A stretch of 64,000 bases of DNA from an uncultured Clostridia bacterium (lineage in GTDB: Bacteria; Bacillota; Clostridia; TANB77; CAG-508): NCBI GenBank assembly GCA_949045875.1, contig CARPYP010000002.1, positions 36,063 through 100,062 on the forward strand. The letters are read 5' to 3'. The notes below the pieces were generated by a model. That model made no database searches. It was not told the origin of the DNA and saw only the letters and a program-made list of their open reading frames with translations. Of this stretch, positions 53,320-57,352 are shown piece after piece. The first letter of the stretch is position 1. Every line of letters starts with the position of its first letter. A program made the translations under genes and the position numbers.

Positions 53320-55080
53320 TTATATATTGTTACTTATATCTTCTACAATTTGTTTTGGAGTAAGTCTATTTTCTCTTAAAATGTCATTTACATCATATCT
53401 ATCTATAAACTCTTTCTTCAATCCGTAATTTTTAACTTTCATATCTGATTCTCCATAATAACTTGCTATACTTGAACCAAAACCACCATCTAAAATTCCA
53501 TCTTCTAATGTAATTACTAATTTATGATTTTTCTTTAAATCTTCTAATAATTCTTTATCTAATCCTGTTACATATCTTGGATTAATTAATGTTGGATTAA
53601 ATCCTAATTTTTCTTTTACTTCTTTTGAAACTTCCTCTCCAATTTGATAGAAATCTCCTAATGCTAAAATTGCGACTTTTTCACCTTGTTCTTCCACTTT
53701 ATATTTATTGATATTACTATAATCCTTCTCTGATGTCCTTCCATCATTTATTACTCCATTTCCTGGCATTAATATCATTACTGGATGCTCTTTTTGTTCA
53801 ATAGACCAATCAAGCATTGACATATATTCAGCTTTATTTGTTGGTGCAAGTATTACTAAATTAGGAATATGTGAAAATGCTGAAATAGTAAATATTCCTA
53901 AATGTGTTACATCATTTAGTCCTGCAACTGATGTGTAATTTAAAACGATTGTTGCTGCATTATTATTTATACATAAGTCTTGCGATATTTGGTCATAAGT
54001 TCTTTGTATAAATGTTGAGTTTGTTCCAAGTATTGGCTTACCACCATTTTTAGCAATTCCTGAAATCAATGCAACTGCTTGTTCTTCTGCAATTCCTACA
54101 TCTACAAACTGTTTTCCTGCTTGTTTTCTTCTTTCAATATCAAATCCTATTGTTTCAGGCATAGCTGGTGTTACTGCTACTATTGTTTTATCTTTCTTCA
54201 TTTTTTCTAATAAATAATCTGCTGTTAAAGTAGCATAATCTTCGGCATCTCCAAAATCAACTGTTGTTTTACCTGTTTCTTCATCAAAAGGCATACACCA
54301 ATGCCAATCTTCTTTATTTTCTTCTGCAAGTTTATATCCTTTACCTTTTTGAGTATTAATATGAACTACTATTGGATGATCTATGTTTTTTACTTTTTCA
54401 AAAGTTTCTATCATTTTCTCAATATTATTTCCTTCATTTTGATAAATATAATCTAATCCGAAAGCTTTAAATAAATTGTTTTCTGCCATTCCGTTCGTAT
54501 TTCTTAATTCTTCTAAATTTTTATAGATTCCACCATGATTTTCTGCAATAGATTGTTGATTATCATTTACAACTACTATAAAATTTGAATTTAGTTCTGA
54601 TCCGACATAATCTAAACCTTCAAAAGCCTCTCCACCACTTAAAGAACCATCTCCAATAACTGCTATAATATTTTCATTATTTCCTTTTAAATCTCTTGCT
54701 TTTGCTAAACCTGATGCTAAACTAATTGATGTAGATGTGTGTCCTACATTAAAGAAGTCATGCTCACTTTCTTCTGGATTTGTATATCCTGAAATTTCTC
54801 TAAAATGTTCTTCATATAGGTATCCATCTTTTCTTCCTGTTAGCATTTTGTGTGGATATGTTTGATGTGATACATCAAATACAAATTTATCTTTTGGAGA
54901 TTCAAATACATAGTGCATTGCTATAATTGTTTCTACCATACCAAAATTTGGTCCAAAATGTCCTCCCATTTTAGTTAGTCTATTCATCAATGCTTTTCTT
55001 ATTTCTTCTGCTAATTTTTCTAATTCTTCCATATTTAATTTCTTTACATCTTTTGGACTGTTAATCTTTTCTAAATACAT
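53320..55080 (-). CDS. dxs: 1-deoxy-D-xylulose-5-phosphate synthase-like (transketolase family)
   Basis: GGHFGPNFGMVE...HYVF..P.DK...DV.HQ.YPHKMLTGR matches the Dxs N-terminal signature. Confidence 0.7.
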   Translation of the reverse strand: MYLEKINSPKDVKKLNMEELEKLAEEIRKALMNRLTKMGGHFGPNFGMVETIIAMHYVFESPKDKFVFDVSHQTYPHKMLTGRKDGYLYEEHFREISGYTNPEESEHDFFNVGHTSTSISLASGLAKARDLKGNNENIIAVIGDGSLSGGEAFEGLDYVGSELNSNFIVVVNDNQQSIAENHGGIYKNLEELRNTNGMAENNLFKAFGLDYIYQNEGNNIEKMIETFEKVKNIDHPIVVHINTQKGKGYKLAEENKEDWHWCMPFDEETGKTTVDFGDAEDYATLTADYLLEKMKKDKTIVAVTPAMPETIGFDIERRKQAGKQFVDVGIAEEQAVALISGIAKNGGKPILGTNSTFIQRTYDQISQDLCINNNAATIVLNYTSVAGLNDVTHLGIFTISAFSHIPNLVILAPTNKAEYMSMLDWSIEQKEHPVMILMPGNGVINDGRTSEKDYSNINKYKVEEQGEKVAILALGDFYQIGEEVSKEVKEKLGFNPTLINPRYVTGLDKELLEDLKKNHKLVITLEDGILDGGFGSSIASYYGESDMKVKNYGLKKEFIDRYDVNDILRENRLTPKQIVEDISNNI

Positions 55081-55510
55081 AAATTTACGTCCTTTCTATT
55101 CTTTTTTTTAATAATTAAATTTTACCAAATGTTTAGATATACTGTCAATAGTTTTAAAAATCTTGGGTTTCATTATTCCCGCTATACATTCTTTATTTAT
55201 CAATGTATGTCTCTTTTAACCCCTCTACTAGTTGCCATTTATCTAATAACTTTCTTTCTTCCTTTTCTTTTGACATTATTTTGTTTTCTATTTTCATTAT
55301 TATTGTTCGTATTGCTTCAAAACTTAGTGTTGCATTTGTTGTCTCTTTTATTACTCTTTCCGCTTTTCTATATGAATCTGTTATTGGTACTATAGATTTT
55401 TGCTTAGAGGCTTAGATAAAGTTGACCTTAAATGGGGACTTTTATGCTTTGCATTAAATATAAAAAGAATGGATAAAAGGATACAGAAAAATTAAAAATT
55501 ATATTATTTT

Positions 55511-55800
55511 CTTAATTGGAAGAAGTCCCTACTTTGGTAAGGACTTCGAATACGTCAATAGGAATTTTGGCAGGCATGCCATAATCCTGCAGCTCTCGGG
55601 TTTCCCCTGTTATTACCGAATCGGCGCGTGGTCGGCACAATATTTTACCACCACAAAATCCCTATCTATATTGGAAGAGCACTTGCCTAAACAAGTGCCT
55701 CTCATTAACATAGGTTTTACAGGTGTGCCCTTTCCTGTATTTCTTTTGACCTTATTTCTAAGGTGCATGGCAGAACAATCTCCACTTCAAATTCCTATGT
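55511..55800. ncRNA. GC-rich structured island in an AT-rich background. Candidate unidentified structured RNA; strand uncertain
   Basis: Local GC far above background. Several stable hairpins (GAAGTCC...GGACTTC, GGCATGCC palindrome, CACTTG..CAAGTG). No convincing ORF. Confidence 0.3.
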
Positions 55801-56100
55801 TCTTATTGTATCTTTATTATAACATTTTTATTCCTTCTTGTAAATTTTACTATATTTTTACTTTATATGCAATAAAATGACTATATTTCTCTAGCCATTA
55901 CAATATATCTATATGTACTACATTTTTCATGTTAGTATTATTTGTATATGTATATCTTGCATAAATGGGTTGGATAATTTACTGCTGGAAGAAAAAGTGA
56001 TGGCAAGAGTGTATTTGATAGATTTGAAGGACAGGAAGACTATAAGATTAATAATTATTTATTAGAAAATAAAACCGAGTTGCATTAAATTAAAGAAAAA

Positions 56101-56466: not shown

Positions 56467-57352
56467 ATGTACGATTTAGAATATAAAATAATTGATAATA
56501 GATATTACAATATAAAACAAATTATAAAAGAAGAATTTAATATTTCAGATAGATTATTAAAACGTTTAAAAACTAATAATAAAATATTTTTAAATAATCA
56601 AATCATAAATCCTAATTTTACTAATCTTAATGTTGGTGATATAGTTTCTATTACTTTCAGTTTTGATGAAGAGTATGATAATATTCTTCCTGTTAAAATG
56701 GATTTAGATATAGCTTTTGAAGATGACTATTTATTAATTATAAATAAGTTGCCAAATACTCCTGTTCACCCTTCTTGTAACCACTTTTCTGATAGTTTAT
56801 CTAATGGAGTAAAATTCTATTTTGATTCTATTGGACTAAAACGTAAAATTAGAATTGTTAATAGATTAGACAAAGATACTTCTCGGTCTTGTAATCTTTG
56901 CAAAGAATGAATATATACAAGAATGTCTAATTCGTCAAATGAAAAATAACTATTTTAAAAAAGAATATATTGCTGTTTTAGATGGGATTTTATCAGAAAA
57001 ATCTGGAACAATATCTGCACCTATTGCTAGAAAAGATAATAGTATAATTGAAAGATGTGTTGATTTCAAAAATGGCGAAATTGCAATAACCCATTATGAT
57101 TTAATTAAAAACATTAATAATTCTTTGTCTTTAGTTCATTTTGTACTTGAGACTGGACGAACACATCAAATACGTGTACATTCTGCTTATATTGGTAATC
57201 CTATTGTTGGAGATACCCTTTATGGTAATTCATCTGAATTAATAGATAGACAAGCCCTTCATTCATATAAGATTACATTTATTCATCCTATTACTAGAGA
57301 AAATATGATATTAGAAGCGGATTTACCTAAGGATATGAAAGTATTCTTCTAG
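56467..57352 (+). pseudogene. RluA-family pseudouridine synthase split by a +1 frameshift at 56884-56886
   Basis: RLDKDTS motif then stop. Removing one C gives RLDKDTSGLVIFAKNEYIQECLIRQMKNNYFKKEY... joining ORF 56939-57352. Confidence 0.8.

What the first reader, a model, noticed from the sequence alone, without database searches (positions are those of the whole stretch)
55511..55800. GC-rich, hairpin-dense island between dxs and tRNA-Leu: candidate structured ncRNA of unknown family
About 290 bp of markedly elevated GC in a roughly 25% GC genome. It has several stable stems (GAAGTCC/GGACTTC near 55511-55537, the palindrome GGCATGCC, CACTTG-N6-CAAGTG at about 55690-55720, GGGTTTCCC). There is no plausible ORF; 55671-55880 is low-complexity. 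On the minus strand it lies about 330 nt downstream of tRNA-Leu, beyond the tRNA terminator. I could not match it by eye to RNase P, tmRNA, SRP RNA, 6S, TPP, FMN, T-box or glmS consensus motifs.
Basis: seen in the sequence. Interest (0 to 1): 0.55.

Follow-up and report, generated by a model that had tools for sequence, protein, structure and literature searches.

The report
Two orphan skipping-rope RNA genes
The GC-rich island is two tandem copies of a known but functionally unexplained bacterial/phage RNA (the "skipping-rope" motif), left here without the phage-type RNase gene that almost always sits directly in front of it, which suggests the RNA may be that nuclease's inhibitor.

Summary
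Window 55511-55800 is 42.8% GC against a 26.4% mean, the highest in the window, and it folds far better than shuffles.

It is not an unknown family. On the minus strand, Rfam calls two full-length skipping-rope RNAs (RF02924) at 55795-55711 and 55661-55562. There is a near-consensus promoter (55844-55816), and each copy is followed by a terminator-like hairpin.

In related loci this RNA starts 20-60 nt after the stop codon of a PBECR2/3 (BECR-fold RNase) domain. That domain is either fused to phage MuF minor-capsid proteins or stands alone at about 130 aa. All 78 evaluable protein-first viral loci and all 5 evaluable stand-alone loci carry the RNA.

The window has no such gene. Its closest relative (L324) has the nuclease ORF exactly where the window has copy 1, and the window keeps only that gene's promoter, 5' UTR and ATG.

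I also found a strongly covarying loop-loop pseudoknot, which gives the RNA a tRNA-like cloverleaf topology.

My best mechanistic reading, which is inferred and untested, is that the RNA is the nuclease's partner, most likely an immunity or antitoxin RNA. The window would then carry an orphan array of two RNA types, possibly decaying.

The identity is secure. The function is a hypothesis.

The parts
55844..55872 (-). Candidate upstream promoter, TTGCAT-17 nt-TAAAAT. It lies in a stretch (55823-55912) that is 91% identical to the promoter, 5' UTR and RBS region of the stand-alone PBECR gene in L324. A weak hairpin at 55895-55878 precedes it.
   Evidence: Sequence reading. blastn to L324. L324 and L333 sequences. 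The -35 matches only 3 of 6, so the promoter scan did not list it.
55816..55844 (-). Sigma-70-type promoter of the RNA genes: TTTACA, 17 nt, TG-n-TATAAT (11 of 12 matches, extended -10). The predicted start is near 55809.
   Evidence: Promoter scan. The same TTTACA...GGAATAA...TGnTATAAT arrangement precedes the RNA in the phage loci.
55823..55857 (-). Relic of the missing nuclease gene. The ATG at 55825-55823 aligns with the start codon of the PBECR ORF of L324. The codons ...KIYKKE-stop (stop at 55830-55828) resemble the conserved ...LYK(K/S)E-stop end of PBECR ORFs. There is an in-frame stop at 55860-55858 and no ORF body.
   Evidence: (tblastn of PBECR proteins against the window finds nothing significant).
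55707..55801 (-). Skipping-rope RNA copy 1 ('type 1a'). An outer stem encloses three hairpins. The Rfam match is 55795-55711.

It departs from near-invariant positions in four ways:
- a G55788.A55718 mismatch closing the outer stem;
- a G.U at the last pair of hairpin 1;
- a compensated A-U at the first pair of hairpin 3;
- G to U at 55774 in the pseudoknot strand.
   Evidence: Rfam 37.9 bits (gathering score 36.7). Own model R1 gives 80.3 bits. The MFE fold reproduces the architecture. It is 88.7% identical to phage locus L112.
55674..55704 (-). Hairpin 1 after copy 1, with the tail CUCUUCCAAU. It is terminator-like but has a poor U-tract, so read-through into copy 2 is plausible.
   Evidence: Fold (-14 kcal/mol, z = -3.6). 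The terminator scan found no canonical site. Similar hairpins with UCUUCC tails occur in L112, L129 and L087.
55558..55665 (-). Skipping-rope RNA copy 2 ('type 2', about 102 nt). It has the same four helices plus an extra GGG-GAAA-CCC hairpin (55607-55598) in the junction before the last hairpin.

The loop-loop pseudoknot pairs 55639-55634 (UGUGCC) with 55580-55575 (GGCAUG).

It carries a unique A to C change at 55592, at an otherwise invariant junction base.
   Evidence: Rfam 42.5 bits. R1 gives 31.8 bits. It is 93% identical to L324.
55508..55547 (-). Hairpin 2 (arms 55547-55537 and 55532-55522), followed by UUCUUCCAAUUAAG. Homology to L324 ends here, so this is the end of the module.
   Evidence: I13, D2. 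(-16.3 kcal/mol, z = -4.6)..

Best explanation
SHOWN
- The island is a small transcription unit on the minus strand, about 55872 to 55508.
- It holds two tandem skipping-rope RNA genes (Rfam RF02924) of two different subtypes. There is a near-consensus promoter, and each gene is followed by a weak terminator hairpin.
- Each RNA is an outer stem closing a four-way junction with three hairpins. The loops of the first and third hairpins pair with each other in a 6-bp pseudoknot.
- In phages, prophages and chromosomal cassettes, this RNA starts 20-60 nt after the stop codon of a PBECR2/3 domain. That domain is a predicted metal-independent BECR-fold endoRNase. It is either the C-terminal 'toxin' domain of MuF/minor-capsid proteins or a stand-alone protein of about 130 aa. 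The RNA's -35 box is embedded in the last codons of that ORF.
- The window has lost the nuclease ORF. Its nearest relative, L324, has the ORF exactly where the window has copy 1. The window keeps only the gene's promoter, 5' UTR and ATG.

INFERRED
- The RNA is the dedicated partner of the PBECR nuclease.
- Most likely it binds and neutralises the nuclease, as an RNA immunity factor or type-III-like antitoxin.
- It may do so by presenting a tRNA-like cloverleaf that the RNase binds but does not cleave.
- On this reading, the window carries an orphan array of two RNA types. It is transcribed constitutively and could blunt PBECR nucleases injected by incoming phages.
- Each copy also carries substitutions at otherwise invariant positions, so the array may equally be starting to decay.

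CONFIDENCE
The figure of 0.4 is for the whole statement, including the inferred inhibitor role. For the identity and the orphan status alone I would give about 0.95.
For: Identity
- Two full-length Rfam hits above the gathering score.
- The independent MFE fold reproduces the architecture, with z = -4.8.
- Across 85 homologues, 98.2% of cells are paired and 15 of 22 pairs change on both sides. 0 of 500 shuffles reach this, and slid controls give 30-47% paired.
- On a MAFFT alignment not fitted to the structure, 98.6% of cells are paired. The pseudoknot helix is 98.2% paired, with 4 of 6 pairs changing on both sides.

Linkage to PBECR
- RNA-first sample: 29 of 36 viral loci have a PBECR ORF directly upstream. 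In 28 it ends 29-32 nt before the RNA. In L100 it ends 141 nt before, with another RNA copy in between.
- Protein-first sample: 78 of 80 viral loci carry the RNA just downstream on the same strand, and the other two stop at a contig end. The proteins are 36-100% identical to the query alignment. There were no hits anywhere else in 384 kb. 60 of these contigs were new.
- Stand-alone 130-aa PBECR family: 77 clusters. All 5 evaluable loci have the RNA 22-36 nt after the stop codon. They lie at prophage ends or between ligA and ruvB.
- No conserved protein ORF occupies the slot after the nuclease domain. MuF toxins normally have a small immunity ORF there (PMC5576092).
- Two MuF proteins that carry a different toxin domain (Ntox50) have the RNA further away. 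In L120, two small ORFs lie between.
- The candidate catalytic His, His and Thr/Ser residues are invariant.
- The major protein clades partition exactly with RNA subtype: 44 of 44 and 74 of 74.

Orphans
- About one third of type-2 RNAs in metagenome contigs lack the gene: 30 against 55 with it, including second copies of tandems.
- Some orphans sit in plain chromosomal settings (L210, L280).
- Orphan tandems exist (L270, L278, L283).
- This is the pattern known for orphan immunity genes.

The window as an orphan.
Against: - No experiment of any kind supports the function. RNA inhibition of a BECR-fold nuclease has no precedent that I could find.
- Tight linkage fits equally well with the RNA being a substrate, a cofactor or a packaged partner.
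- The match between subtype and protein clade is expected from physical linkage alone. Within one protein cluster of at least 55% identity, both subtypes 1b and 2 occur.
- My samples are biased toward gut Firmicutes phages and toward the window's own subtypes.
- Weinberg et al. describe the associated protein as lying on either side and in either orientation. I could not read which domain they meant.
- PBECR toxicity is itself only predicted (PMC5512222).
- The AF2 model (pLDDT 88.8) had no significant PDB match. The best plausible hit was a CdiA-CT toxin at probability 0.63.
- The window copies carry changes at near-invariant sites.
- One low-coverage contig of the same species lacks both promoters.
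Confidence: 0.4

Rival explanations
1. Decaying relic. The two RNAs are what remains of a PBECR-RNA cassette after the nuclease gene was deleted. They now do nothing, whatever the RNA's original job was.
For: - The nuclease ORF is gone while its 5' UTR and ATG remain.
- Copy 1 scores barely above the Rfam threshold (37.9 against 36.7). It has a G.A mismatch and a G to U change in the pseudoknot strand.
- Copy 2 has a unique A to C change at a base that is A in 82 of 82 other RNAs.
- L082 lacks both promoters.
Against: - The promoter is intact at 11 of 12 matches, with an extended -10.
- All helices in both copies still pair, including a compensated A-U pair in copy 1.
- The pseudoknot can still form in copy 2. 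In copy 1 it can form in a shifted register.
- Orphan copies are frequent elsewhere, including in tandem.
Confidence: 0.3
2. The RNA is needed for, rather than against, the nuclease. It could be a cofactor, a guide, a scaffold or a processed substrate that is packaged with the MuF-PBECR protein or activates it.
For: - The same tight linkage.
- Conserved junction nucleotides and a compact tertiary fold are typical of RNP components.
- The PBECR domain of phage Mu's MuF protein itself is predicted to be catalytically inactive and RNA-binding (PMC5512222).
Against: - Orphan RNAs with their own promoters in chromosomes that lack the protein are hard to explain as cofactors.
- So are orphan tandems of different subtypes.
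- The RNA has its own constitutive-looking promoter rather than being part of the nuclease transcript.
Confidence: 0.18
3. An independent trans-acting small RNA, or phage 'moron', whose position next to PBECR genes is only a preferred insertion spot. It would regulate host or phage mRNAs by base pairing.
For: - Weinberg et al. regard the motif as a likely stand-alone RNA with its own terminator.
- It has its own promoter.
- It occurs at prophage ends, where morons are common.
Against: - The RNA follows the nuclease domain whatever that domain is fused to and wherever the module sits. All 78 evaluable protein-first viral loci have it, and so do all 5 evaluable loci of the stand-alone family, giving 83 of 83.
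- Conservation lies in junctions and paired regions, not in a single-stranded seed.
- The one antisense idea I tested, the RNA tail against the nuclease start region, is no better than shuffles.
Confidence: 0.08
4. A cis-regulatory leader, either a riboswitch or attenuator for the downstream dxs gene or an antitermination or 3'-end element for phage late genes.
For: - It lies on the same strand as dxs and about 430 nt upstream of it.
- Its terminator hairpins are weak.
Against: - dxs has its own 11 of 12 promoter at 55148-55119.
- dxs homologues at 85-94% identity elsewhere have no such RNA and share no flanks.
- Genes downstream of the RNA are not conserved and are often on the other strand.
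- Rfam finds no riboswitch.
- Weinberg et al. note the motif is rarely in 5' UTRs.
Confidence: 0.03
5. A fragment of foreign, higher-GC coding DNA.
For: GC content is elevated in an AT-rich genome.
Against: - There is no ORF with family support.
- The GC lies in covarying helices.
- The element matches an RNA covariance model end to end, twice.
Confidence: 0.01

Closest known systems
Skipping-rope RNA motif (Rfam RF02924; Weinberg et al. 2017, PMC5737381)
   Same: - Both copies match the full 80-position model above the gathering score.
- They have the same layout of an outer stem plus three hairpins, and the same conserved junction bases.
- Each has its own hairpin at the 3' end.
- The motif is found in Firmicutes and phages.
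- Its function is unknown, and it is reported to associate with one protein domain.
   Different: - Here two different subtypes sit in tandem.
- The 3' hairpins lack a good U-tract.
- No associated protein gene is present.
- Each copy has one or more changes at near-invariant positions.
- Rfam's structure line as printed shows no pseudoknot. I could not check whether the loop-loop pairing I found is in the published model.
Type III toxin-antitoxin systems (ToxIN, CptIN, TenpIN). Comparison from established knowledge, not tested here.
   Same: - An endoribonuclease gene sits next to a small structured RNA gene that has its own expression signals.
- The RNA can be in tandem copies.
- Compact two-gene modules occur on phages, prophage ends and chromosomes.
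   Different: - The nuclease here has a predicted BECR fold (PBECR2/3), not the ToxN/AbiQ type.
- The RNA lies downstream of the nuclease gene, not upstream.
- It is an 85-100 nt cloverleaf with a pseudoknot, not a 34-36 nt repeat.
- Processing, binding and inhibition are all untested.
- The window has no toxin gene at all.
MuF polymorphic toxin / immunity modules of temperate phages (Jamet et al. 2017, PMC5576092; Iyer et al. 2017, PMC5512222)
   Same: - In the related phage loci, a variable C-terminal toxin domain on a MuF/minor-capsid protein is followed at once by a small genetic element.
- That element varies with the toxin type.
- Orphan copies occur without the toxin.
   Different: - The element in the immunity position is an RNA gene, not a small ORF.
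- No immunity activity has been shown.
- The window holds only the putative immunity part.
tRNA and tRNA-like structures
   Same: - Four-way junction with linker lengths 2, 1, 4 and 0 nt.
- Helices of 8, 4-5, about 5 and 5 bp.
- The loops of the first and third hairpins pair, like the D-loop/T-loop elbow. This comes from reading.
   Different: - ARAGORN and the Rfam tRNA model do not detect it.
- There are no T-loop or D-loop sequence signatures.
- The middle arm is short, bulged and variable, with no anticodon loop.
- The loop-loop helix is 6 bp.
drum and DUF3800-I motifs (same section of Weinberg et al. 2017)
   Same: They are highly conserved, terminator-followed RNAs with a 'compelling association' to one protein domain and unknown function.
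   Different: Their structures are unrelated. I did not examine them.

Membership tests
Skipping-rope RNA (RF02924) | Full-length match to the covariance model at or above the curated gathering score (36.7 bits) | tested here: met
   55661-55562 scores 42.5 bits and 55795-55711 scores 37.9 bits. Both cover model positions 1-80 and neither is truncated.
Skipping-rope RNA (RF02924) | Outer stem enclosing three hairpins, supported by covariation | tested here: met
   The MFE folds reproduce it. 98.2% of cells are paired and 15 of 22 pairs covary across 85 homologues. The same holds at 98.6% on an alignment not fitted to the structure.
Skipping-rope RNA (RF02924) | Conserved junction and loop nucleotides | tested here: inconclusive
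   Most are present. Copy 2 has C instead of an invariant A at 55592. Copy 1 has a G.A closing mismatch and a G to U change in the pseudoknot strand.
Skipping-rope RNA (RF02924) | Rho-independent terminator at the 3' end (Weinberg et al.) | tested here: inconclusive
   Stable hairpins follow both copies. Their tails are CUCUUCCAAU and UUCUUCCAAUU, and the terminator scan found no canonical site.
Skipping-rope RNA (RF02924) | A specific protein domain encoded nearby | tested here: not met
   No PBECR homologue was found in the 64-kb window by tblastn or HMM. Only a relic of the 5' UTR and ATG remains. This is a common property of the family, not a requirement of the RNA model.
Type III toxin-antitoxin system | EndoRNase toxin gene adjacent to the RNA gene | tested here: not met
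   It is absent from the window. It is present in relatives L324, L330-L337 and in the phage loci.
Type III toxin-antitoxin system | The RNA binds and inhibits the toxin, and the toxin processes the RNA precursor | not testable with these tools
   This needs toxicity-rescue, binding and cleavage assays.
MuF polymorphic toxin / immunity module | Immunity determinant immediately downstream of the toxin domain | tested here: inconclusive
   The position is met in relatives: the RNA lies 20-60 nt after the PBECR stop codon and there is no conserved ORF there. Immunity itself is untested, and the window lacks the toxin.
tRNA / tRNA-like | Detected by tRNA models | tested here: not met
   ARAGORN finds only tRNA-Leu. 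Rfam shows no tRNA match on the island even at E <= 1.
Riboswitch (TPP or other) for dxs | Match to a riboswitch model in the 5' UTR of the regulated gene | tested here: not met
   There is no riboswitch hit. The RNA lies 430 nt from dxs, which has its own promoter.

The most novel reading that the evidence does not exclude
Skipping-rope RNAs are RNA immunity factors, that is type-III-like antitoxins and perhaps tRNA-mimicking decoys, for the PBECR2/3 BECR-fold RNases. Phages carry these RNases on MuF capsid proteins, and small cassettes carry them as stand-alone genes.

The window would then hold an orphan immunity array of two RNA types that a host retained after losing the nuclease gene. 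This would be the first RNA immunity determinant for a polymorphic-toxin or BECR nuclease. It would also assign a function to an orphan RNA class.
Probability: 0.3. Interest if true: 0.85.

Novelty: new member of a known kind. Interest (0 to 1): 0.5.

Why it matters
The locus itself is two more members of an RNA family already in Rfam, so as a discovery it is modest.

What matters is what the surroundings show. The skipping-rope motif has had no function since 2017. Here it turns out to be the constant downstream companion of one predicted RNase domain, PBECR2/3. That holds whether the domain is fused to phage MuF capsid proteins or stands alone in 750-bp cassettes. The RNA also survives as promoter-bearing orphans and tandem arrays.

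This turns an open question into a simple experiment: does the RNA neutralise the nuclease? If it does, there are three consequences:
- phage MuF toxins of this class would use RNA rather than protein immunity;
- BECR nucleases would gain a new kind of inhibitor;
- chromosomal orphan copies would count as a form of anti-phage protection.

The covarying loop-loop pseudoknot and the tRNA-like junction geometry also give structural biologists a concrete model to test.

Tried and rejected
1. Synteny through dxs. 80 genome loci with dxs relatives (up to 94% aa identity) share no flanking DNA with the window. The 15 closest of them (L001-L015), which I scanned with Rfam, have no tRNA or skipping-rope RNA. 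So this gave no information on site conservation.

2. att-like repeats of tRNA-Leu. No repeat of the tRNA's 3' end occurs elsewhere in the window. A 21-nt, 81% direct repeat flanks the module (55449-55469 and 56080-56100), but a repeat like this is expected by chance in sequence this AT-rich.

3. A nuclease pseudogene upstream of the RNA. tblastn and HMM searches find nothing beyond the last few codons and the 5' UTR.

4. The 72-codon frame without a start codon at 55190-55405. It has no Pfam match.

5. Antisense pairing between the RNA's UCUUCC tail and the nuclease's start region. The median longest complement is 5.5 nt, the same as shuffles at 5.56 nt.

6. BLAST of the island against plasmids. 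Only chance AT-rich matches came back.

7. Literature. Nothing links skipping-rope RNA to a function or to PBECR. The supplement of Weinberg et al. that names the associated domain is not held. My memory that the domain is COG3943/RhuM could not be verified, and I did not use it.

8. Defence databases. PADLOC has no hit for the stand-alone nuclease, and its PHROG family is of unknown function.

10. An early note that the window holds two dxs paralogues was wrong.
Full report
OBSERVATION

Window 55511-55800 is 42.8% GC in a window averaging 26.4%. It is the single highest 290-nt stretch in 64 kb.

The minus strand from 55812 to 55500 folds at -94.5 kcal/mol, against -70.1 +/- 5.1 for dinucleotide shuffles (z = -4.8). 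Only spurious 42-69 aa ORFs overlap the region.

tRNA-Leu(TAG) is at 56215-56133 on the minus strand, followed by its own terminator. dxs is at 55080-53320 and has its own 11 of 12 promoter at 55148-55119.

WHAT IT IS

The Rfam scan gives two full-length matches to RF02924, skipping-rope RNA, on the minus strand. They are at 55795-55711 (37.9 bits) and 55661-55562 (42.5 bits), against a gathering score of 36.7. Nothing else reaches threshold on the island. The sub-threshold rli23 and MicX matches are chance.

Reading the minus strand in order:
- A possible upstream promoter, TTGCAT-17-TAAAAT, at 55872-55844.
- A near-consensus promoter, TTTACA-17-TGtTATAAT, at 55844-55816.
- RNA copy 1. Its outer stem extends to 55801/55707.
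- Hairpin 1 at 55704-55674, with the tail CUCUUCCAAU.
- RNA copy 2. Its outer stem extends to 55665/55558.
- Hairpin 2 at 55547-55522, with the tail UUCUUCCAAUU.

Neither hairpin has a canonical U-tract, so the two RNAs may be partly co-transcribed.

Weinberg et al. 2017 (PMC5737381) describe skipping-rope as a highly conserved motif with 3' terminators. They report no self-cleavage, rare occurrence in 5' UTRs, and a 'compelling association' with one protein domain. The function is unknown. The supplement that names the domain is not held.

STRUCTURE AND COVARIATION

I collected relatives in three ways:
- exact-pattern scans of viral contigs;
- a BLAST hit in a gut phage record;
- one metagenome scan.

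I built a covariance model, R1, from 14 sequences.

On 85 aligned homologues, 98.2% of cells are paired and 15 of 22 pairs change on both sides. No shuffle out of 500 reaches this, and sliding the 3' partners drops pairing to 30-47%. That alignment was fitted to the model.

A plain MAFFT alignment of 37 'type 2' sequences gives the same picture at 98.6% paired.

There is a further helix, between the loop of the first hairpin and the loop of the third. It is 6 bp. In type 2 it reads CGU-NNN / NNN-ACG, and the variable core appears as ACC/GGU, CCC/GGG, GGC/GCC, ACG/CGU, AGC/GCU, CCG/CGG and ACA/UGU. In type 1a it reads UGUGCU/GGCACA. On the MAFFT alignment this helix is 98.2% paired, with 4 of 6 pairs changing on both sides.

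With linkers of 2, 1, 4 and 0 nt between helices, the RNA has the topology of a tRNA cloverleaf with a D-loop/T-loop-like contact. This is my reading of the alignments. tRNA detectors do not see it.

Subtypes:
- Copy 1 is 'type 1a' and is 88.7% identical to phage locus L112.
- Copy 2 is 'type 2', about 100 nt. It has an extra GGG-GAAA-CCC hairpin in the junction before the last hairpin. That hairpin is conserved and covaries (G-C to A-U) in relatives.

GENOMIC COMPANY

RNA-first sample. In 36 RNA-bearing viral loci, one ORF family lies upstream on the same strand in 34. In 28 of them it ends 29-32 nt before the RNA. In L100 it ends 141 nt before, with another RNA copy in between. That makes 29 of 36 with a PBECR ORF directly upstream.

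The shared part of this family is a C-terminal domain of about 110 aa that matches Pfam PBECR2/PBECR3. It is usually fused to Phage_min_cap2, a MuF-type minor capsid protein. The domain always ends ...LYK(K/S)E-stop. The RNA's -35 TTTACA is the L-Y-K codons, and the conserved GAATAA in the promoter spacer is Glu plus the stop codon.

[quoted passage not shown] They are thought to be packaged in virions and injected (PMC5512222). MuF proteins with C-terminal toxin domains are a polymorphic-toxin family. Their toxin genes are normally followed by a small immunity ORF (PMC5576092).

Protein-first sample. An alignment of the domain retrieved 80 viral loci at 36-100% identity. R1 found the RNA in 78 of them, always on the same strand just downstream, with no other hit in 384 kb. 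The remaining two loci end at the contig edge. Sixty of these contigs were not in the RNA-first set.

Other findings:
- The two main protein clades partition exactly with RNA subtype: clade 1 with type 1a (44 of 44), and clade 2 with types 1b and 2 (74 of 74). Linkage alone would also produce this.
- No conserved protein ORF follows the nuclease domain.
- Phages whose MuF protein carries Ntox50 instead have the RNA further away. In L120, two small ORFs lie between.
- A family of stand-alone PBECR proteins of about 130 aa (77 clusters) shows the same rule. In all five evaluable loci a 102-nt type-2 RNA starts 22-36 nt after the stop codon.
- These two-gene cassettes sit after the lysis genes at prophage ends (L330-L334) or between ligA and ruvB (L335-L337). 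In L335 the 747-nt unit is bounded by a perfect 35-nt direct repeat.

ORPHANS

In non-redundant counts, 55 type-2 RNAs in metagenome contigs have the nuclease ORF upstream and 30 do not. Those 30 include second copies of tandems.

Some orphans lie among ordinary chromosomal genes (L210, L280). Others lie next to an integrase or a prophage edge (L213, L237).

Tandem pairs recur in L100, L104, L114, L129, L256, L262, L270, L278 and L283.

THE WINDOW'S LOCUS IS AN ORPHAN

No PBECR homologue exists anywhere in the 64 kb.

The closest relative of the module is L324, a metagenome contig from another AT-rich spore-former, where the module is flanked by rpsR and a radical-SAM/spoIIIA region.
- L324 is 93% identical to window 55508-55673 (copy 2 plus hairpin 2).
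- L324 is 91% identical to window 55823-55912 (upstream hairpin, promoter, 5' UTR, RBS, ATG).
- Between these two blocks L324 has a 131-aa PBECR2 ORF (Pfam E = 2.8e-11).
- In the same place the window has only the -10 box, copy 1 and hairpin 1.

The 5' UTR of stand-alone nuclease genes (AGAAAGGAATATAAATG) resembles the ORF end plus promoter spacer (AAAAAGGAATAAATAATG). A deletion between these two similar stretches would give exactly the hybrid seen in the window. This is inference.

The flanks differ between the window and L324, so the module has moved.

Contigs of the same species are 99-100% identical across the region. The exception is the low-coverage L082, which lacks 55791-55879: both promoters and the first 5 nt of copy 1.

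STATE OF THE TWO COPIES

All helices still pair.

Copy 1:
- a G.U in place of a near-invariant G-C;
- an A-U in place of an invariant G-C, changed on both sides;
- a G.A mismatch closing the outer stem;
- G to U at 55774 in the pseudoknot strand, although a shifted 6-bp pairing remains possible.

Copy 2 shares all its unusual bases with L324, which still has the nuclease. The one exception is an A to C change at 55592, where 82 of 82 and 36 of 36 other RNAs have A.

This is compatible with relaxed constraint after loss of the nuclease, but it is too little to decide.

HOW IT MOST LIKELY WORKS

Shown: the identity, the structure, the promoter, the near-obligate linkage to PBECR2/3, and the orphan status of the window's copies.

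Inferred: the RNA is the nuclease's partner, and most probably its inhibitor.

The arguments for the inhibitor reading are positional and comparative:
- The RNA occupies the immunity slot of a polymorphic-toxin gene.
- It follows the toxin domain regardless of what that domain is fused to.
- It has its own constitutive-type promoter, so it could be made in lysogens while late genes are silent.
- Stand-alone nuclease-plus-RNA cassettes look like toxin-antitoxin modules.
- Promoter-bearing orphans and mixed-subtype arrays mirror orphan immunity genes.

A tRNA-shaped RNA would be a natural decoy for a nuclease family that includes tRNA anticodon nucleases. That step is speculation.

The alternatives and my weights for them:
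- decaying relic, 0.3 (this concerns the window's copies only);
- cofactor, substrate or packaged partner, 0.18;
- unrelated sRNA or moron, 0.08;
- cis-regulator of dxs or of phage late genes, 0.03;
- foreign coding fragment, 0.01.

The AF2 model of the stand-alone nuclease is confident (pLDDT 88.8) but has no significant PDB neighbour. The best plausible match is a CdiA-CT toxin at probability 0.63. The nuclease assignment therefore rests on Pfam, on the invariant His/His/Thr-Ser pattern, and on Iyer et al.

VERDICT

The 'unknown family' part is not: these are two new members of the known skipping-rope family.

The function of the family remains unproven. The analysis gives it a specific, testable partner and role.

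Caveats:
- The samples are biased toward gut Firmicutes phages and toward the window's subtypes.
- Weinberg et al. had already noted an association with a protein domain that I could not identify.
- Nothing here is experimental.

Noticed in passing
L335:3953-3987 and L335:4700-4734: A perfect 35-nt direct repeat bounds a 747-nt unit made of a stand-alone PBECR gene, its skipping-rope RNA and terminators. The unit is inserted right after a 79-aa ORF between ligA and ruvB. This suggests the two-gene cassette moves as a unit with a long target duplication.
   Followed up: partly
window 55634-55639 with 55575-55580 (copy 2); family-wide in alignment A5, columns 24-30 with 91-96: A loop-loop pseudoknot joins the first and third hairpins of skipping-rope RNAs. 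Its 3-nt core is hypervariable but always complementary. Together with junction lengths of 2-1-4-0 nt, this gives a tRNA-like cloverleaf topology.
   Followed up: yes
window 56467-56910 and 56939-57352 (+): An RluA-type pseudouridine synthase is split into two ORFs of 147 and 137 aa. Both match PseudoU_synth_2. All same-species contigs that reach it show the same split, so it is either a pseudogene or a real two-part gene.
   Followed up: no
window 53320-55080 (-) against L001-L009: This dxs gene has relatives at 85-94% amino-acid identity (up to 93% DNA identity) in other uncultured Clostridia genomes. None of them shares any flanking DNA or neighbouring genes, which points to transfer or rearrangement of dxs itself.
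   Followed up: partly
L082, relative to window 55791-55879: One same-species contig (coverage about 2x) lacks an 89-nt stretch holding both promoters and the first 5 nt of RNA copy 1. The end points share the short sequence ATAG. It is either a real promoter-deletion variant or an assembly artefact.
   Followed up: no
window 55081-55507 (-): A 430-nt AT-rich spacer lies between the RNA module and dxs. It holds a 72-codon open frame with no usable start codon and no SD sequence. It has no Pfam match and no similarity to any fetched locus.
   Followed up: partly
L093, L106, L108, L107, L120 (viral loci): Some phages carry the skipping-rope RNA after MuF proteins whose C-terminal domain is not PBECR (Ntox50 or an unassigned domain). 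In L093, L106, L108 and L120, small ORFs lie between that gene and the RNA. These are orphan RNAs inside phage genomes, as expected if toxin cassettes are swapped while the RNA stays.
   Followed up: partly
window 55449-55469 and 56080-56100 (+): A 21-nt direct repeat with 81% identity brackets the whole RNA module downstream of tRNA-Leu. An 11-nt exact seed is expected about once by chance in sequence this AT-rich, so it is probably not an insertion scar.
   Followed up: partly
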